Part shown: positions 11-14,703 of the stretch, piece after piece
Numbering within the stretch: the stretch's first letter is position 1
How the letters are laid out: every line of letters begins with the position of its first letter
Assembly (NCBI RefSeq): GCF_006345805.1
Contig: NW_021825638.1
Span: forward strand, 1 to 14,764
Direction of reading: 5' to 3'
DNA length: 14,764 nucleotides
Source of the DNA: Octopus sinensis
Taxonomy: Eukaryota
Position numbers and translations under genes: made by a program
The notes under the pieces: generated by a model
Database searches by the model: none
Told to the model about the DNA's origin: nothing
Seen by the model: the letters and a program-made list of their open reading frames with translations, nothing else

Positions 11-722
11 GCGACAGGCATTGTAGAAATTTCTTAAATGCTAAGCGAGCAGTGCATAGAAGTTAAAATGTATCCACACCTCTGCTAGAAACGCTTGTTT
101 CCTACATAAAATATTCTCTGAGATGTCTCAAAATCTTTTTCATTTTCAATAACACATCATAATGTGTTGAATGTCTCATAATAAACAAAACCTAAATGCT
201 ATTTGCTGTCATTCTCAGATTTATTGCCATACACTTGAAGCAAATTGTCTGTGCAACAGACCCTTTGGTGTGGTAATTCTGTTAGTAGCAGATTTTCGCC
301 AAACTGCTCCTGTGATAACAAGAGATTCTAATGCTGTTATTATTGAAAATTGTATTAAATGCTCGCAACTTTGGCCTCATGTAGACATGTAAAATTGGTA
401 GGTATTTCCGGAAATCTGAAAATGACAGGGACAGAAGAATTTAGTAGTTGGTCACTTGATGTTGGAAGAATTTCATAATCGGCTACTTGATGTTGGAAAC
501 GTTACACTGACGTGTGAATATTGAATGACTGGAAGAAAGTTTAATTCCTATGCTATCAGAACTAATATCAGGCGGAAGGATATTATTAGATATTTGGAAT
601 TTCAAGAGATATCTCAAAGGAAGAATCAATCGAAAATGCCTCTTGAAAGACATTGTTATCTACTAAAAATGTAGTTACTTTCTACCTGAACAATTGCTAT
701 TCTTATATTGCTGCCTGGAAAT
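11..722 (+). pseudogene. Decayed Helitron-type PIF1-like (SF1B) helicase fragment
   Basis: ORF 171-392 contains RPFGVVILLVADFRQTAPVI...IENCIKCSQLW, matching the PIF1/Helitron motif PFGGK.ILLGGDFRQ.LPV...SIK.S.LW. Colinear motifs lie in other frames: ATGI at 11, MTGTEEFSSWSLDVG at about 422-466 (F..WLL.IG-like), LSTKN..LN at about 655-695 and LLPG at about 708-719. Stops and frameshifts occur throughout. Confidence 0.8.
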
Positions 723-2510: not shown

Positions 2511-2619
2511 ATATAATAATTTCCATTATTATTTAATTGAACGGCCACGCATCTAATTCCAAGTATATAATATATATATATATATATATATTATATTATA
2601 TATATATATATATAGAAGG

Positions 2620-2670
2620 AGCTTCTACAGGACTAGAACTGTTTCATTCAAGAGAAATCATCAGGAAGCT
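2620..2670 (-). ncRNA. Type I hammerhead ribozyme with complete core
   Basis: Minus strand reads AGCUUC-CUGAUGA-U-UUC-UCUU-GAA-U-GAAA-CAG-UUCUAGUC-CUG-UA-GAAGCU. This gives a 6-bp stem I, CUGAUGA, a short stem II closed by U.U, GAAA, stem III ACAG/CUGU and a GUA cleavage triplet. Confidence 0.85.
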
Positions 2671-2677
2671 ATTTAAC

Positions 2678-2850
2678 TATATATATATGTATATATGTAT
2701 ATATATATATATCATATTATATATTTGTATGTATATTATGTATATGTGTGTGTATGTGTATGTGTACATGTACGTGTACGCTCGTGTGTTTATGTATATG
2801 TAGGTACGTAGAGTTTATTATGTAGGATGTGTACTATCCTATGTGTAATG

Positions 2851-2890
<40 letters not shown>

Positions 2891-3110
2891 TATATATATA
2901 TAATATATATATATAGGTGTATATATATATGTGTAAGTTTATATGTATGTATCCGTCTGTATAATGGGTAACTGCACGTATATACTTAATATTTATTATT
3001 TATGTATATGTAGGTACGTAGAGTTGTATGTATGGATGTGTATATATACATATGTGGTAAATGGGTATATATATATATATAGTATATTATATATATATAT
3101 ATTATATATA

Positions 3111-3178
<68 letters not shown>

Positions 3179-3534
3179 TATATATATGTGTGTAAGTTTA
3201 TATGTATGTATCCGTCTGTATAATGGGTACCCGCACGTATATATACTTAATATTCATTATTTATTTTTTGAGTATGCATGTATGTATATGAATAACTGCA
3301 CGTATATATATTTTATTATTTATTTTTTGAGTATGCATGTAAGTATATGAACATAAGGAGGAGCGCGTGGTGTGTATGTGTAAGCATATGTATAGATATA
3401 TGATACTTTTACGCATGTGTGTACTTATGTGTATATATGGATGCGCGTGTGTGTGTGTGTGTATGTGTACGCATGTATATGTGTAGGTGTGTGTATGTGT
3501 ATATATAGTATATATTTGTGTGTATATGTATATA

Positions 3535-3573
<39 letters not shown>

Positions 3574-4226
3574 GTGTGTATGTATATATATATATATATG
3601 TGTATATATATGTATATGTATGTGTATGTATGCGTGTATATGTATGTATATGTATATGTGTGGGTGTGTGTATGTGTATATATGTATGTATGTATGGGTG
3701 TATGTATATGTATGTATATATACGTATATATATATATATATATATACATATATATGTGTATGTGTATGTTTTTGTATGTAGGTGTATATGTATATGTGTA
3801 TATATATTTATTGGTGTATATGTATGGACTAGTCTTCCGTGGGTGTATTGAGGTATGTATGTGTAAGCGTGTAGACACGAATCTGTAGGTACGCGTACGT
3901 ATGTGTATATATGTGAATGTATGTAGATGTATGTATGTATGACTATAACGCGTGCGTGCGTGTATGTGTATGAGTGTACGAATGAGTGAGTGTGCGTGCG
4001 AATGAGTGTGCGGCGTGAGTGAGTGCTTGTGTTCGAGTAGAAAGATAAATGGACATGCTGTCGTCCCCAGGGAGACGATAGCCAAGATGCTTGTGACCGA
4101 GGTCAAAGATAACAAAAGTAATAAATGAAAATAATAATAATAAAATTAAAATAAGGGAATGGGTTTTGCTGTTTATGTATATGTGTGTATGTGTAGGTAT
4201 GTATAGGTACACATATGTATATATAT
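2678..4226. repeat. Compound (TA)n/(TG)n/(TATG)n microsatellite field containing a tandem duplication
   Basis: Low-complexity sequence read directly. Units at about 2791-3000 and 3001-3260 share the anchors GTAGGTACGTAGAGTT and GTAAGTTTATATGTATGTATCCGTCTGTATAATGGGTA. Confidence 0.9.
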
Positions 4227-4598
4227 ACTCTTTACTCTTTACTCTTTTACTTGTTTCAGTCATTTGACTGCGGCATGCTGGAGCACCACCTTTTAGTACT
4301 TATTCTATCGGTCTCTTTTTGCCGAACCGCTAAGTGACGGGGACCTAACCACCAGCATCGGTTGTCAAGCAATGCTAGGGGGACAAACCTAGACACACAA
4401 ACACACGCATACATATATACATACATATATACGACAGGCTTCTTTCAGTTTCCGTCTACCAAATACACACTCACAAGGCATTGGTCGGCGGCCGGGCTAT
4501 AGCAGAAGACCACTTGCCCAAGATGCCACGCAGTGGGACTGAACCCGCAACCGTGTGGTTGGTTAGCAAGCTACTTACCACACAGCCACTCCTGCGCC
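4227..4598 (-). mobile_element. tRNA-derived SINE with head and tail, (AGTAAAAG)n-type tail
   Basis: Minus-strand head GGCGCAGGAGTGGCTGTGTGGTAAG...GGGTTCAGTCCCAC has pol III A and B boxes. There is an internal microsatellite and a tail ...GACTGAAACAAGTAAAAGAGTAAAGAGTAAAGAG. The tail is shared with 6643-6759. Confidence 0.88.
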
Positions 4599-4899
4599 TA
4601 TATGTATATATATATGTGTATATATGGACATGTGTGTGCATGTGTGTATGTTATATATATATGTGTGTGTATGTGTGTATGTGTATGTGTGTGTATGTAT
4701 ATATTTGTGTGTATATGTATGTGTGGGCGTGTGTGTATATATACATGTATATGTATGTATATATATATATTATATATATATATATATGTAATGCGTATAT
4801 ATATGTAGTGTATATGTATTGTCTATGTATGTGTGTGTTATATGTATAATGTGTGGTGTGTGTGTGTGTGTGGTATTATATACATATGGTGTTATGTAT

Positions 4900-5248
4900 A
4901 GTATAAGTGAGAATCTCCTTATTTACATTAAAACTCTATTCTTCTATTTATTTTTTTATTCCTTTATTTATTCTTGTATCTATTTTACCACTGACTCCTT
5001 GACCACTCCCCTAAGTATGATATTTTTGCGCTATGCCTACCCCCCAAAAAGTCCCCCACTACCACCCCTTTAAACCTGCCTAAATGTATAAAGGCCAAAA
5101 CTATTCCTGGTAACTAGCTTCCTGATGATTTCTCTTGAATGAACAGTTCTAGTCCTGTAGAAGCTCCTTCTATATAATAATTAATTTTACTCTGCTATGT
5201 ATTGAGTACCTTATTTCACTGTGGGTTAACCCGAATCAACCCGGGACC

Positions 5249-5250
<2 letters not shown>
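4900..5250 (+). mobile_element. Hammerhead-bearing non-coding element (Penelope pseudo-LTR-like)
   Basis: Non-repetitive island between microsatellites that contains an HHR nearly identical to the reverse complement of 2614-2677. Boundaries are approximate. Confidence 0.6.
5116..5165 (+). ncRNA. Type I hammerhead ribozyme, one A missing from the GAAA box
   Basis: AGCUUC-CUGAUGA-UUUC-UCUU-GAAU-GAA-CAG-UUCUAGUC-CUG-UA-GAAGCU. It is identical to the 2620-2670 copy except GAAC for GAAAC. Confidence 0.75.
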
Positions 5251-5315
<65 letters not shown>

Positions 5316-5505
5316 GGAGAGTTCATGAAAAAAAAAACAAAAGACGAAGACAGGTGGCGTAGAAAACAAGCAGATGTATTAGTATAACGCTCAGGAATTG
5401 GAAAAGTATTTTACGTTTCGAGCCTACGTTCTTCTACAGAAAGGGACACAGAAAAAAAAAAACAAGGGAGAAACGAGGAGCGAAAAAATGTGTGTAGTGG
5501 CTCGA
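5316..5505 (-). mobile_element. About 190-nt minimal-hammerhead cassette, family B copy 1 (HHR at 5408-5444)
   Basis: Minus strand CCUUU-CUGUAGA-A-GAAC-GUAG-GCUC-GAAA-CGU-A-AAAU. Colinear with 6924-7115 and 11615-11804. Abuts (TA)n at its 3' end. Confidence 0.75.
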
Positions 5506-6560: not shown

Positions 6561-6642
6561 ACACCACACACACAAACACACACACACACACACACACACA
6601 ACACACACATATATATAATATATATATATAATATATATATAT

Positions 6643-6759
6643 ACTCTTTACTCTTTTACTTGTTTCAGTCATTTGACTGCAGCCATGCTGGAGCACCGCC
6701 TTTAGTCGAGCAAATCGACTCCATGACTTATTCTTTGTAAGCCTAATATTTATTCTATC
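6643..6759 (-). mobile_element. 5'-truncated SINE (3' tail of the 4227-4598 family)
   Basis: ACTCTTTACTCTTTTACTTGTTTCAGTCATTTGACTGC..CATGCTGGAGCACC matches about 4234-4287. No tRNA-like head is present. Confidence 0.85.
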
Positions 6760-6923: not shown

Positions 6924-7115
6924 TTCGCCATGCAGGACCGCTGTAAACTACAAGTTGTTTTTCACTCTTTGTTTATTTTCTCTTATTCCTTTCTCTTGTG
7001 GAGCGTAGGCTCGAAACGTAAAAGACTTTTTCATTTTTCCCAAGCGTCAAACTAATGTACTTGCTTGTTGTTCATACACCAATCTCTGTCTTTTGTTTTT
7101 CTAAAAATGTCAACT
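6924..7115 (+). mobile_element. About 190-nt minimal-hammerhead cassette, family B copy 2 (core degraded; motif at 6988-7024)
   Basis: Starts TTCGCCATG, like the 11804 end on the minus strand. CCUUU-CUCUUGU-G-GAGC-GUAG-GCUC-GAAA-CGU-A-AAAG keeps stems I and II and GAAA, but the CUGA box is mutated. Microsatellite lies on both sides. Confidence 0.75.
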
Positions 7116-7932: not shown

Positions 7933-9211
7933 TAAGTTCCCGCGGTTTTTTAAAAAAATTTAACTATTTTAAAAGGTTTAATAAAAAAAATAACAATTAA
8001 TTAACCAATAATGTATTCACCCTTGCTGTTTACAACTTCTTCCCAACGTTCAACAAGATTTTCAATACCTCGTTGGTAGAACTCACCCGATTTCGACTCG
8101 AAAAATTGATCCAAGTTCTCAATTCTGCATTAGTATTGAACGAAACTCCGCGCATAGCATTTGAAAGAGATCGATAGAGGTGGAAATCCGTTGGTGCCAA
8201 ATCAGGAGAGTACGGCAGGTGTGCCAGCATTTCCCAGCCATGCGTTTGAATGGCTTGCTTTGTCATATTGGCGATATGAGGGCGGGCGTCGTCGTGTAGC
8301 AGAAGAACTCCATGCTGCCGATTAGTTCTTTTCTCTTGAATAGCCGTGTTGAGTCGTTCAACGTGTTGAACATAGAGTTCCGCATTGACCGTTTGGTTCC
8401 GTTCAAGCAATTCATAATAGATAATCCCTTCCCAGTCCCACCATACGCATAACATCGTTTTACGCAGATTAAGATCTTGTTTCACTCGCGCGGTGTCACT
8501 TGTTTACCGGGGCTAAGCCACTCCTTACGCTGCTTCATATTGATGTACAGTCACCATTTTTCGTCGTCAGTAACGATTCGGTAAAGAAATCGTTGCTTAT
8601 GTCCATGACTTGAGTGGTGATGAGCAAGCAAACCAGCAGAGATTGTGGTTCGTTGATTTTTGTTGTTGTCACTTAAAGCATGCTGAACCCATGCTCCATA
8701 CTTCTGAACCTTTCCCATCGAGAGAAGATGCTTCTCTATAGCAGTGTGGAAGCATTCCATTTTCTCTGCCAGTTCCCTTGTCGTTTGACGAAAATTTTCG
8801 TGCAAAAGATGGTTTAATCGCTCTTCATCGAACTCAACTGGACGGCCAGAACGAAGTAACTCTTTGAGGTTAAAATTTACATTTTCGAACTAGGCATACC
8901 CGTCACAAGCGGTTCTTACAGCTATGGCACCCCCTCGATATACGAAACAAATGTCGCAAGTAGTTTTTGCAGCCTTAAAACCTTGATTAAAAGCGAAAAG
9001 AAGGTGTCGAAAATACTCGTTTTTCTTAACTTGACATTCCATTCTGATGATATGAAAATAAACAAAAATTAACTAAAATTAACTAGAAAAAAAAAACACA
9101 AAAGAAAATAGATCCCAAAATAGAATTCTCGAAAAAAATAGATTCCAAAATTTAAAAACGTAATAAATTCCAAAATTTAAAAAAACCGAGGGAACTTAGT
9201 TGCTAACTCAA
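7933..9211 (-). mobile_element. Mariner (DD34D) DNA transposon, near full length
   Basis: Inverted termini TAAGTTCCCGCGGTTTTTT (7933) and AAAAAACCGAGGGAACTTAGTTGCTAACTCAA (ending 9211). About 1.28 kb with a transposase pseudogene inside. The outer part of the left TIR is missing. Confidence 0.95.
8001..9042 (-). pseudogene. Mariner transposase pseudogene
   Basis: ATG at 9042 (MECQVKKNEYFRH...). Motifs RSGRP, WVQHAL (WVPHEL-like), IVTDDEKW, HDDARPH and YSPDLAPTD, with 34 residues between the second and third Asp. Ends ERWEEVVNSKGEYIIG* at 8001. In-frame stops at 8890-8892 and 8551-8553; frameshifts near 8490 and 8110. Confidence 0.95.
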
Positions 9212-11614: not shown

Positions 11615-11804
11615 GGGGAGAATTCACAAAAAAGCAAAAGACGAAGATAGGTGGTTTAGACAACAAACATGTATTAGTATAACGTTCGTGAAGTGAAAAG
11701 GTCTTTAACGCTTCGAGCCTACGCTCTTCCACAGAAAAGAACACAAAAAGAAACAAGGAGAGAAAATAAAGAATGTGTTGTGGCTAGTTATCTATCATGG
11801 CGAA
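11615..11804 (-). mobile_element. 190-nt minimal-hammerhead cassette, family B copy 3 (HHR at 11703-11739)
   Basis: Minus strand starts TTCGCCATG and contains UUUU-CUGUGGA-A-GAGC-GUAG-GCUC-GAAG-CGU-U-AAAG. It is cleanly embedded in (TATG)n on both sides. Confidence 0.8.
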
Positions 11805-12672: not shown

Positions 12673-12708
<36 letters not shown>

Positions 12709-12709
<1 letters not shown>

Positions 12710-12907
12710 TTAATCCAAACATGAAAACACAAAGAGAAAACACAAGACGTGAGGACGTGGAACAAGTATAGTATTATTGGACGCTCAGGAAAGAAGGAAA
12801 GAAGGAGGGTTTCGTTTCGAGCGGAGCTCTTCGTCGAAACATAGGAAAAGGAAAGATCCAAAGAAGGGAAGACGGAGGGAAAAAATCGCCAACGATCACA
12901 TTTTGAA
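12709..12907 (-). mobile_element. Minimal-hammerhead cassette, family C, left arm of inverted pair
   Basis: Reverse complement of 13001-13212 over about 200 nt. The HHR at 12809-12840 reads GUUU-CGACGA-A-GAGC-UCC-GCUC-GAAA-CG-AAAC, so the U of CUGA and the cleavage-site UU are deleted. Confidence 0.85.
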
Positions 12908-12941
12908 TATATATATATATATAAACACACGCGGTCACATT

Positions 12942-13000
<59 letters not shown>

Positions 13001-13001
<1 letters not shown>

Positions 13002-13212
13002 TCAAAATGTAACCGCGTGTGTACCGTTGGCGATTTTTTTCCTCCGTCTTTCCCTTCTCTGGAGCTTTCCTTTCCCTATGTTTCTGACGAAGAGCTCCGC
13101 TCGAAACGTTAAACCCTCCTTCTTCCCTTCCTTCCTGAGCGTCCAATAATACTATATTTGTTCCACGTCCTCCCGTTGTGTTTTCTCTTTGTGTTTTCAT
13201 GTTTGGATTAAC
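13001..13212 (+). mobile_element. Minimal-hammerhead cassette, family C, right arm of inverted pair
   Basis: 212-nt unit flanked by (TA)n and containing the HHR at 13080-13114. Confidence 0.85.
13080..13114 (+). ncRNA. Minimal type I hammerhead ribozyme
   Basis: GUUU-CUGACGA-A-GAGC-UCC-GCUC-GAAA-CGU-U-AAAC. It has a 4-bp stem I, CUGACGA, an extra A, a 4-bp stem II and GAAA. Stem III is a loopless palindrome (AACGUU) with a GUU triplet. Confidence 0.8.
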
Positions 13213-13232
13213 ATTATATATATATATATATA

Positions 13233-14703
13233 TTCGAGTGTGTCGAAACATAACGACTTTTAAGAAACGCTATAAGAAAATTAGGGTTATGTGACCCCTC
13301 CGTACCACTCGCGTACACCCCCACAATTAAATACTCTAATTTTCTATATTAAGCATATAATCTCTAATACATATAATAAATTGCTTATGAAGCATTTGAT
13401 CATATTCCACTGTAGGAACCGTGTTTAAAACATCTGATGAGTTAAGACAATTGGTAGGTAGGTATCCCTACAAAATTGTAAAATTGCAACTTTTCAATGA
13501 ATTTTTTTTTAGAAAATGTATATATTTGTTAAATGATTTTCTTTTGTTTTTCTGATTATTTCAGAGCTAAGTTGTATTATAATTTTACAAAAATACCTAT
13601 ATAAATTCAAACTGTAATAATTTAAGTATATAAAATTGTATAATGGCAACTAGAAGTAAAAGCAGCAATTGAGCATTTGGATTTCCTGCAGAATTTCCTA
13701 CAACAATGACCCACATCAAATGCTGATATATTCCGAGATTCTTTTTCTTCAGAAAGCTTGAAGAACATATATATATATAAAAAAAGACTTCATCCCCAGC
13801 GAAAGAATGCTACCGCATTGTTGCTGCAGATGTGCAAACAATGTGGGACAATTTTTCTTGTCCTTATATTGGATTTGAGGGAAAAGCTCTAAAAATTGAT
13901 AGATTGATTGAATCTGCTTATAAATTAAACAAAATACCTATGAAGCAAAGAGGAGATAATTTCGATAAGAAATTCGAGGAGTTCGATGAAATGTTTGATA
14001 TATGCACCTGCACTTGTTATGACAATCAAATAAATAGATCTGACTGTCGTAGCCAATACCTCTTCCTTGTCATAGCCAAGGAGTCGAACGTGCTATCAAA
14101 TTTAGTGATAAAGACTTCTGAAGTGAGAATATGCTACCAAAATAGGCACAAATGCCTATTAATTGTACAGAAATCAAGACAAAGTTTACCTCACTTTGAC
14201 TGGAAGAGACAATGGTCATTTAATTAAATAGTAATTATTATTAATGCTTATTTTATGGTGTTCACTGTCCATGTATTTCGTTTGAGGTTCGTGCATAGAT
14301 TTTTTATTGCATATCATAATAGTCATTAAAAATTTACCTTTTGCTAATATTGAAAGTGCTTTTCTGAATACAGGCATATTTCTAAAATAAAAATAATACA
14401 AAATATATAAATAAAGATTCCAATAACTGTTTTTTTTTTCAGGGTATAGGGGAGGTGCATATAATTTTTAAAATGTTTTATAAGTAATATTTAACCAATA
14501 CAAAGTTAATAGCATAAAAAACAAGTTTACATTTCCTTATATTTTCAATATTCAAAACGCAGAATTAGGTGGGGTGGTGCCATGCGAAGGGTAGGTTTTT
14601 AACTCAGCAAGTTTATACTTAAAAAAAATTTTAATTTATTTCTCACACCAAAATGATCACCAAGCAATGTGGAATCAGAAATAAAATTTCGACCCCCGCC
14701 TAA
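13233..14703 (+). mobile_element. Internally deleted DNA transposon, hATm-like
   Basis: Imperfect TIRs TTCGAGTGTGTCGAAA (13233-13248) and TTAGGCGGGGGTCGAAA (reverse complement of 14687-14703), each adjoining (TA)n. A transposase-like N-terminus lies inside. The subfamily call is from recall of TTAGGG-type termini. Confidence 0.6.
13643..14065 (+). pseudogene. Transposase N-terminal fragment (hATm-like)
   Basis: ATG 13643 MATRSKSSN*AFGFPAEFPTT, then a frameshift to PTSNADIFR. ORF 13832 gives MWDNFSCP...KIDRLIESAYKLNKIP...EMFDICTCTCY...DC, resembling the TRS..FG.P..LPT..D and W....IP...LFDIC.C.C pattern of this group. No catalytic domain is visible. Confidence 0.55.

What the first reader, a model, noticed from the sequence alone, without database searches (positions are those of the whole stretch)
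2614..2677. Bare 64-nt complete hammerhead inserted in (TA)n, with a U.U pair closing stem II
The non-repetitive insert is little more than the ribozyme. All core nucleotides are present, with predicted cleavage after GUA (between 2626 and 2625 on the minus strand). The usual G10.1-C11.1 pair is replaced by U.U, and stem II is only 3 bp. Stem III has a real 8-nt loop, so it could fold as a monomer. This is the best candidate for activity.
Basis: partly seen in the sequence, partly recalled or inferred. Interest (0 to 1): 0.75.

Follow-up and report, generated by a model that had tools for sequence, protein, structure and literature searches.

The report
Inverted hammerhead end of Penelope retroelement
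This is a real hammerhead-ribozyme sequence, but it is likely the short flipped end of one of thousands of copies of a Penelope-type jumping gene, its U·U pair is common in that group, and the way other copies end suggests that the ribozyme likely sits at the capped start of the element's RNA, where it would cut the cap off.

Summary
The motif is real: full type I core, U10.1·U11.1, 3-bp stem II, predicted cut 2626/2625. It is not a stand-alone insert. The genome holds 5,581 matches to core plus stem II (control 0). Full-length copies are a Hydra-type Penelope-like retroelement (RT, GIY-YIG, 3-kb microsatellite-like 3' UTR). Here the 64 nt are most likely the short inverted end of one insertion, 2609-5250, whose other end (5111-5176) has lost an A of GAAA. 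U·U is not new: 14 of 26 published Hydra rows have it. The 8-nt loop III is unusual (1-3 nt there), but it is near-palindromic and is predicted to favour dimers. A hairpin over the cut site is predicted to block native copies, not this one. Half of sampled copies end within 15 nt before the core; 19 of 28 joined to (TA)n carry an extra G at the first base of stem I, 29 nt after TATAAA: a likely cap signature. This copy ends 7 nt upstream of that peak. The scan noted cap-ended Penelope stubs before on other DNA. Cleavage is untested.

The parts
2609..2677 (-). Short inverted terminal copy of the element's pseudo-LTR: hammerhead plus the first bases of the short 3' end; 5' break 13 nt before C3
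2665..2670 (-). Stem I 5' arm; its first A (2670) is the inferred capped start of the element's RNA in intact copies
   Evidence: inference
2658..2664 (-). Core C3-A9 (CUGAUGA)
2646..2657 (-). U10.1·U11.1, 3-bp stem II, 4-nt loop II
2627..2642 (-). Stem III (4 bp) with 8-nt near-palindromic loop; predicted dimer interface
2625..2626 (-). Predicted cleavage site, after GUA
   Evidence: sequence; established hammerhead numbering; untested
2611..2629 (-). Competing 8-bp hairpin over the cut site; predicted to dominate native copies, outcompeted in this copy by (UA)n pairing
2564..2608 (.). Left half of the (TA)n target (inferred)
   Evidence: no UTR landmark left of 2609
2678..5110 (+). 5'-truncated body of the same element: microsatellite-like 3' UTR and pseudo-LTR, interrupted at about 4228-4598 by another repeat
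5087..5092 (+). TATAAA box 35 nt before C3 of the second copy; the spacing is kept across subfamilies
5111..5176 (+). Second hammerhead copy, one A of GAAA missing (mutation or assembly error)
5177..5250 (+). Long 3' 'tail', which in full-length copies runs into the start of the reading frame
5251..5315 (.). Right half of the (TA)n target (inferred)

Best explanation
The 64 bases are a type I hammerhead motif from the terminal repeat of a high-copy Penelope-like retroelement with Hydra-clade motifs, likely left here as the short inverted end of a single 2.6-kb insertion, and predicted to cleave only weakly or conditionally. Shown: family, copy number, link to an RT/GIY-YIG frame, one long and one short 3' end per insertion, fixed U·U. 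Inferred for the family: Pol II starts at the first base of stem I, 29 nt after TATAAA; reverse transcription starts at two AT-rich sites about 25 and 90 nt past the cut site on uncut RNA, from both sides of a nicked (TA)n target; the two cDNAs join head to head; cDNAs that run off the capped 5' end give bare or palindromic hammerhead stubs with an extra G. Inferred for the ribozyme: it can fold while the RNA is being made, until a hairpin over the cut site forms about 15 nt later; cleavage, likely helped by dimer formation through loop III or by the element's protein, would release a 45-nt capped leader. This copy broke 7 nt upstream of the cap peak, has no TATA box, and is likely a passive by-product in vivo.
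For: Copies: 40 of 40 other scored hits 63/64 identical, 1,146 candidates; 5,581 vs 0 control. Full-length copy L033: hammerhead, frame, UTR, hammerhead, 5,388 bp apart; frame end followed in order by UTR landmarks to the terminal repeat in 7 of 10 frame-bearing loci. Motifs RWR, DKT, CxCX5C, CxxC, CxH, no CCHH match the Hydra definition. Window 2773-5180 aligns in order with the L033 UTR and nothing continues left of 2609. One long and one short end in inverted pairs (L007, L008, L014, L030, L031, L032, L042). U·U in 14 of 26 Hydra rows of File S2; no substitution at either U in the first 100 of 2,323 copies, 3 deletions. 50 of the first 100 of 5,581 copies lose native sequence within 15 nt of C3 (counted by eye); 453 perfect palindromes centred on stem I; G at -7 in 19 of 28 TA-joined copies, p 2e-6 against 0.25; 12 of 12 fetched from those 19 are bare between (TA)n. 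Untemplated G is read as a copied cap in L1 (PMC9341517 passages). Only 33, 55 and 77 copies differ at the bases beside the cut, so templates were mostly uncut, as for the anole element PAc (PMC11167929).
Against: No Pfam RT or GIY-YIG hit and no PDB hit for the frame; the clade rests on motifs and homologues, with no tree. No Rfam hammerhead match. No compensatory change in 8 aligned copies, 0 of 13 pairs; the family is young, so conservation says little about selection. The two ends in the window differ at three positions near the ribozyme, which a separate insertion would also explain. This copy's junction is unique among 35 loci and outside the cap peak. 6 of 28 TA-joined copies have C, not G, and most of the first 100 of 656 G-preceded copies can take the G from the inverted partner. 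D. virilis Penelope has a TATA-less internal promoter (PMC2377424 abstract). No cleavage or start-site data exist here.
Confidence: 0.78

Rival explanations
1. The 64 nt are a separate bare stub of the same element that inserted later into a (TA)n tract at the truncated 5' end of another copy.
For: Bare stubs between (TA)n exist (12 of 12 fetched); the UTR is rich in the target; the two ends differ at three positions.
Against: The stub sits exactly where the body stops, faces outward, and has the short end while the far end has the long tail, as in ordinary inverted pairs. It lacks the extra G and extends 7 nt beyond the stub peak.
Confidence: 0.1
2. One reading: an autonomous, monomeric, active ribozyme that works at this locus.
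For: All core bases present; the (UA)n flanks are predicted to clamp stem I and remove the blocking hairpin; U·U is reported as the best tolerated mispair (PMC3088659 section 8); fungal PLE hammerheads with a long helix III cleave as monomers (PMC4209133).
Against: P(three stems) is only 0.04-0.05; the dimer is favoured by about 10 kcal/mol; no TATA box in this copy; antisense pairing in a read-through RNA; metazoan PLE hammerheads are weak or protein-assisted.
Confidence: 0.07
3. The family ribozyme works by the published circle model: the two terminal-repeat hammerheads dimerise, cut out a unit-length RNA, and the circle is the template.
For: Near-palindromic loop III and a subfamily change that strengthens the duplex (-16.6 against -14.2); two direct copies in L033; model in PMC4209133. 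One copy ends exactly at GUA (L045).
Against: A circle has no 5' end, yet half of the copies stop at one spot with an extra G. It can coexist with the best explanation for long copies only.
Confidence: 0.2
4. The inverted end is an assembly artefact on a small unplaced contig.
For: The contig is short and repeat-rich; homopolymer indels are common in copies.
Against: The same inverted layout recurs on chromosome-size contigs, e.g. L031, L032, L065.
Confidence: 0.03

Closest known systems
Hydra-clade C-terminal-EN Penelope-like elements (Craig et al. 2021, PMC8557442; section 11, passages, Files S1-S2 part 2 read)
   Same: RT then GIY-YIG, DKT, CxCX5C, CxxC and CxH, no CCHH, (TA)n target, type I hammerhead in the terminal repeat; U10.1·U11.1 in 14 of 26 rows; Penelope-9_HM also has a 3-bp stem II; the same stem III letters occur in several rows.
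   Different: Loop III is 8 nt (1-3 nt in all 26 rows); unit length 5.4 kb (generally under 3 kb) because of a 3.1-3.3 kb microsatellite-like UTR; RWR for RWK; hammerhead differs from Hydra-1_Obim.
PAc, Poseidon element of Anolis carolinensis (Frangieh et al. 2024, PMC11167929; parts 1-2 of 4 read)
   Same: Two internal RT start sites that make the tail; insertions read through the cut site.
   Different: Other clade; its start sites are not homologous to the target, whereas both 3' ends here are AT-rich like the target; the parts read do not mention a cap signature.
Natural hammerheads with U10.1-U11.1 (Perreault et al. 2011, PMC3088659; passages and section 8 read)
   Same: U·U closing a very short stem II; palindromic stem-loop III read as a dimer interface.
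   Different: Many short-stem-II cases there use a pseudoknot; none was identified here.
Inverted pLTR insertions with junction palindromes (Arkhipova et al. 2013, PMC3846280; passages read)
   Same: Head-to-head inverted end, optional tail on one end, TATA and initiator in the pLTR.
   Different: That paper explains the palindromes by self-priming on an antisense template; the extra G here points to run-off at a capped sense RNA.
Non-LTR retrozymes (bioRxiv 10.64898/2026.07.22.740005, part 1 of 5 read; PMC7229834, listing only)
   Same: Type I hammerhead, PLE origin.
   Different: They are tandem non-coding monomers; these copies are dispersed, inverted and linked to a coding element.

Membership tests
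Type I hammerhead ribozyme | Core C3-A9, G12-A14, A15.1-U16.1, H17 | tested here: met
Type I hammerhead ribozyme | Three helices, stem I open-ended | tested here: met
   99% of cells paired, slid controls 30-52%, but no covariation; stems II and III weak, P 0.16 and 0.38
Type I hammerhead ribozyme | G10.1-C11.1 pair | tested here: not met
   U·U; a known natural variant
Type I hammerhead ribozyme | Loop I - loop II tertiary contact | tested here: inconclusive
   Loop II varies among subfamilies and no conserved stem I extension was seen
Type I hammerhead ribozyme | Match to an Rfam hammerhead model | tested here: not met
Type I hammerhead ribozyme | Mg-dependent site-specific self-cleavage | not testable with these tools
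   needs the bench
Hydra-clade Penelope-like element | Single frame, RT then C-terminal GIY-YIG | tested here: met
   Motifs in L033 and L034; homologues of about 700 aa, two labelled PF00078, one named GIY-YIG endonuclease. Pfam did not hit the frame itself, nor recover PF00078 on P0012
Hydra-clade Penelope-like element | DKT, CxCX5C linker, CxxC and CxH, no CCHH | tested here: met
   against the text
Hydra-clade Penelope-like element | RWK motif | tested here: inconclusive
   RWR in L033; RWK or RWR in homologues
Hydra-clade Penelope-like element | Hammerhead in pLTR, (TA)n target, inverted end with tail | tested here: met
Hydra-clade Penelope-like element | Generally under 3 kb | tested here: not met
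   5,388 bp between the two hammerheads in L033; a usual trait, not a strict criterion
Hydra-clade Penelope-like element | Groups with Hydra in an RT tree | not tested
   no labelled reference proteins were at hand
Non-LTR retrozyme | Head-to-tail tandem non-coding monomers, each with a hammerhead | tested here: not met
   31 outward-facing pairs among the first 100 of 5,732 hits; linked to a coding frame

The most novel reading that the evidence does not exclude
In this Hydra family the hammerhead begins at nucleotide +1 of the capped mRNA and is a self-decapping switch: it has a window of about 15 nt of transcription to cut off a 45-nt capped leader before a built-in hairpin locks the site, with the long palindromic loop III allowing either monomer or dimer rescue. 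RNAs that escape cleavage are the templates whose capped ends are copied into thousands of bare and palindromic stubs, and the element also spreads 3 kb of its own (TA)n-rich target with each long copy.
Probability: 0.35. Interest if true: 0.75.

Novelty: new variant of a known kind. Interest (0 to 1): 0.48.

Why it matters
The flagged oddity (U·U, short stem II) is ordinary for this clade, and this copy is likely debris. The family is more useful: what Penelope hammerheads do, and how inverted ends form, are open questions in the papers read. A fixed, cap-marked 5' end at the first base of the ribozyme turns both into direct tests (CAGE, cyclic-phosphate sequencing, concentration-dependent cleavage). 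The 3-kb microsatellite-like UTR would also make this element a source of simple-repeat DNA and of its own targets.

Tried and rejected
Rfam: only microRNA-like hits on simple repeats, no hammerhead. Pfam and PDB on the frame: nothing useful. Protein atlas: not answered. Expression: no RNA holder listed on record; contigs of four runs guessed to be RNA cover the frame and pLTR, with loose ends at the first base of stem I in three of four, but contigs cannot show starts and these may be other subfamilies or genomic stubs, so this is not used as evidence. Read support for the window's own junction was not obtained. Footprint of cleavage in genomic copies: 33, 55 and 77 copies with a changed base beside the cut, many point changes or joins explained by the hairpin's own microhomology; no pile-up can be claimed. 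Covariation: none (one search used a misregistered structure and is disregarded). Snap-back at stem I as the main source of palindromes: rejected, that product is about 2 of 33 listed against 453 double-hammerhead palindromes. Retrozyme, Naiad (N-terminal EN) and Neptune/Nematis (CCHH, CX2-5CxxC) rejected on layout and motifs. Lunse et al. on small PLE hammerhead dimers was not held (title seen only) and may already cover such variants. Paper searches showed no listing of a cap signature at a PLE hammerhead or of this family; subscription papers, Repbase and bioRxiv supplements were not seen.

Full report
Observation. The minus strand of 2614-2677 carries a complete type I hammerhead core with U10.1·U11.1, a 3-bp stem II, a 4-bp stem III with an 8-nt loop and a GUA triplet; the cut would fall between 2626 and 2625. 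Rfam does not detect it, and the 64-mer alone folds no better than shuffles (z 0.24; with flanks z -2.46). A second copy lies at 5111-5176 on the plus strand with one A of GAAA missing.

Family. A DNA search of the genome (2.72 Gb) gave 1,146 candidates; the 40 other scored hits are 63/64 identical. A tight pattern for core, U·U and stem II has 5,581 matches against 0 for the reversed control; a looser one 5,732 against 426. In the first 100 of 2,323 copies anchored on stem I, neither U is substituted (3 lose one by deletion), 4 have core substitutions, and N7, loop II and one loop III base vary by subfamily. No compensatory change appears in 8 aligned copies.

Parent element. L033 holds a full-length copy: hammerhead, a reading frame of about 730 codons with one frameshift, a 3-kb UTR, and a second hammerhead 5,388 bp downstream. 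The UTR is 77% TA/AT/TG/GT dinucleotides, yet it aligns between two contigs at 86.9% over 3,393 columns. In 7 of 10 frame-bearing loci the frame end is followed in order by UTR landmarks up to the terminal repeat; one is truncated, one ends with its contig, one shows no landmark. The protein has RWR, DKT, YHDDG, CxCX5C, a GIY-YIG-like motif, CxxC and CxH and no CCHH, which matches the Hydra clade as defined in section 11 of PMC8557442. Homologues are mostly about 700 aa. Pfam and PDB gave no useful hit and no tree was built. The best other genomic frames are 95-97% identical, so the family is young.

This locus. Window 2773-5180 aligns in order with the L033 UTR and pLTR on the plus strand, with another repeat inserted at about 4228-4598, and no UTR landmark lies left of 2609. 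The far end carries the long tail and the flagged end the short one, as in other inverted pairs. So the 64 nt are best read as the short inverted end of one insertion, 2609-5250, between the two halves of a (TA)n target. The TA run on the 5' side of the ribozyme belongs to the element. A separate later insertion is not excluded, since the ends differ at three positions.

U·U and loop III. File S2 of PMC8557442 lists 26 Hydra hammerhead rows; 14 have U·U, and one of these also has a 3-bp stem II. PMC3088659 section 8 reports natural U10.1-U11.1 and says that this mispair is the best tolerated. What differs here is loop III: 8 nt against 1-3 nt in all 26 rows. It allows a weak monomer hairpin (-2.1 kcal/mol) but is near-palindromic; two copies pair at -14.2, a subfamily variant at -16.6, and the 58-mer cofolds as a double hammerhead at -25.6 against 2 x -7.8. 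Monomer activity cannot be assumed.

Competing fold. In native context an 8-bp hairpin covers the cut site (P 0.99; three-stem fold 0.0002). In this copy the (UA)n flanks close stem I (P 0.99; three-stem fold 0.047). For an RNA starting at the first base of stem I, P(stem I) is 0.97-0.99 up to 12 nt past the cut, 0.25 at 15 nt and 0.12 at 20 nt. These are equilibrium models without Mg2+ or tertiary contacts. In vivo this copy has no TATA box, and a read-through RNA would first contain the antisense of the second copy (-109.8 kcal/mol).

Where copies begin. Of the first 100 of 5,581 copies, 50 lose native sequence within 15 nt of C3, nearly all joined to an inverted copy (counted by eye); 453 loci are perfect palindromes centred on stem I. 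TATAAA lies 35 nt before C3 with the spacing kept while the spacer diverges. Among 28 copies joined to TATAT one base before stem I, that base is G in 19, C in 6, A in 2 and T in 1; the element has T, A or C there (G in one listed copy) and the repeat would give A (p 2e-6 against 0.25). Twelve of these 19 were fetched: all 12 are bare inserts between (TA)n, 6 with the short end and 6 with the tail. An untemplated G is read as a copied cap in L1 (PMC9341517 passages). The inference is that the mRNA starts at the first base of the ribozyme and that stubs are run-off cDNAs of uncut, capped RNA. The larger G count of 656 is confounded by the partner's own G. The flagged copy breaks at -13, a junction unique among 35 loci (85 overlapping matches), so it lies in the scatter and not in the peak. 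Few copies differ beside the cut site (33, 55, 77), in line with PAc, where uncut RNA is the main template and the ribozyme needs protein (PMC11167929).

Prior work. PLE hammerheads, inverted ends, tails and junction palindromes are published. The passages of PMC3846280 explain the palindromes by self-priming on an antisense template. Seven paper searches listed nothing on this family or on a cap signature in PLEs; Lunse et al. was not held. I noted the run-off idea and ran the G test before looking up earlier notes; those show that the scan reached the same reading on other DNA, which is not independent evidence.

Verdict. Real motif, known kind, modest variant (long loop III, long microsatellite-like UTR). 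The flagged copy is probably passive. The family gives a testable model of ribozyme position and insertion mechanism. Interest 0.48.

Noticed in passing
window 13084-13115 (+), inside the inverted repeat 12688-13233: A second, unrelated minimal type I hammerhead core with a palindromic stub for stem III, in another Penelope-like inverted insertion; the opposite arm lacks an intact core.
   Followed up: no
window 5316-5500 (-), 6960-7110 (+), 11616-11800 (-): Related repeat ends beside (TA)n or (TATG)n that look like degenerate Penelope-type termini (self-alignment).
   Followed up: no
window 8030-8889 (-): Broken mariner-type transposase; Pfam PF01359 at E 6e-19 on the 3' piece.
   Followed up: partly
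window 171-392 (+): PIF1-like helicase fragment, E 8e-8, probably a Helitron remnant.
   Followed up: partly
window 4228-4598 (+), related to 6622-6703: A SINE-like repeat inserted into the element's UTR; absent from the other copies. The SINE label is recalled.
   Followed up: partly
L033 1100-4245 (-), L034 6720-10000 (+): The element carries a 3.1-3.3 kb microsatellite-like 3' UTR that is collinear between contigs, so part of the genome's simple-repeat DNA travels with a retroelement.
   Followed up: partly
L045 293-331 (+): One copy ends exactly at the predicted cut and is joined to upstream pLTR sequence of a second copy in tandem.
   Followed up: partly
L032 2795-4500 (+), L035 about 3000-5300 (-): Two other Penelope-like frames with similar linker motifs abut this family's copies in opposite orientation; their nearby hammerhead-like cores have no U·U.
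   Followed up: no
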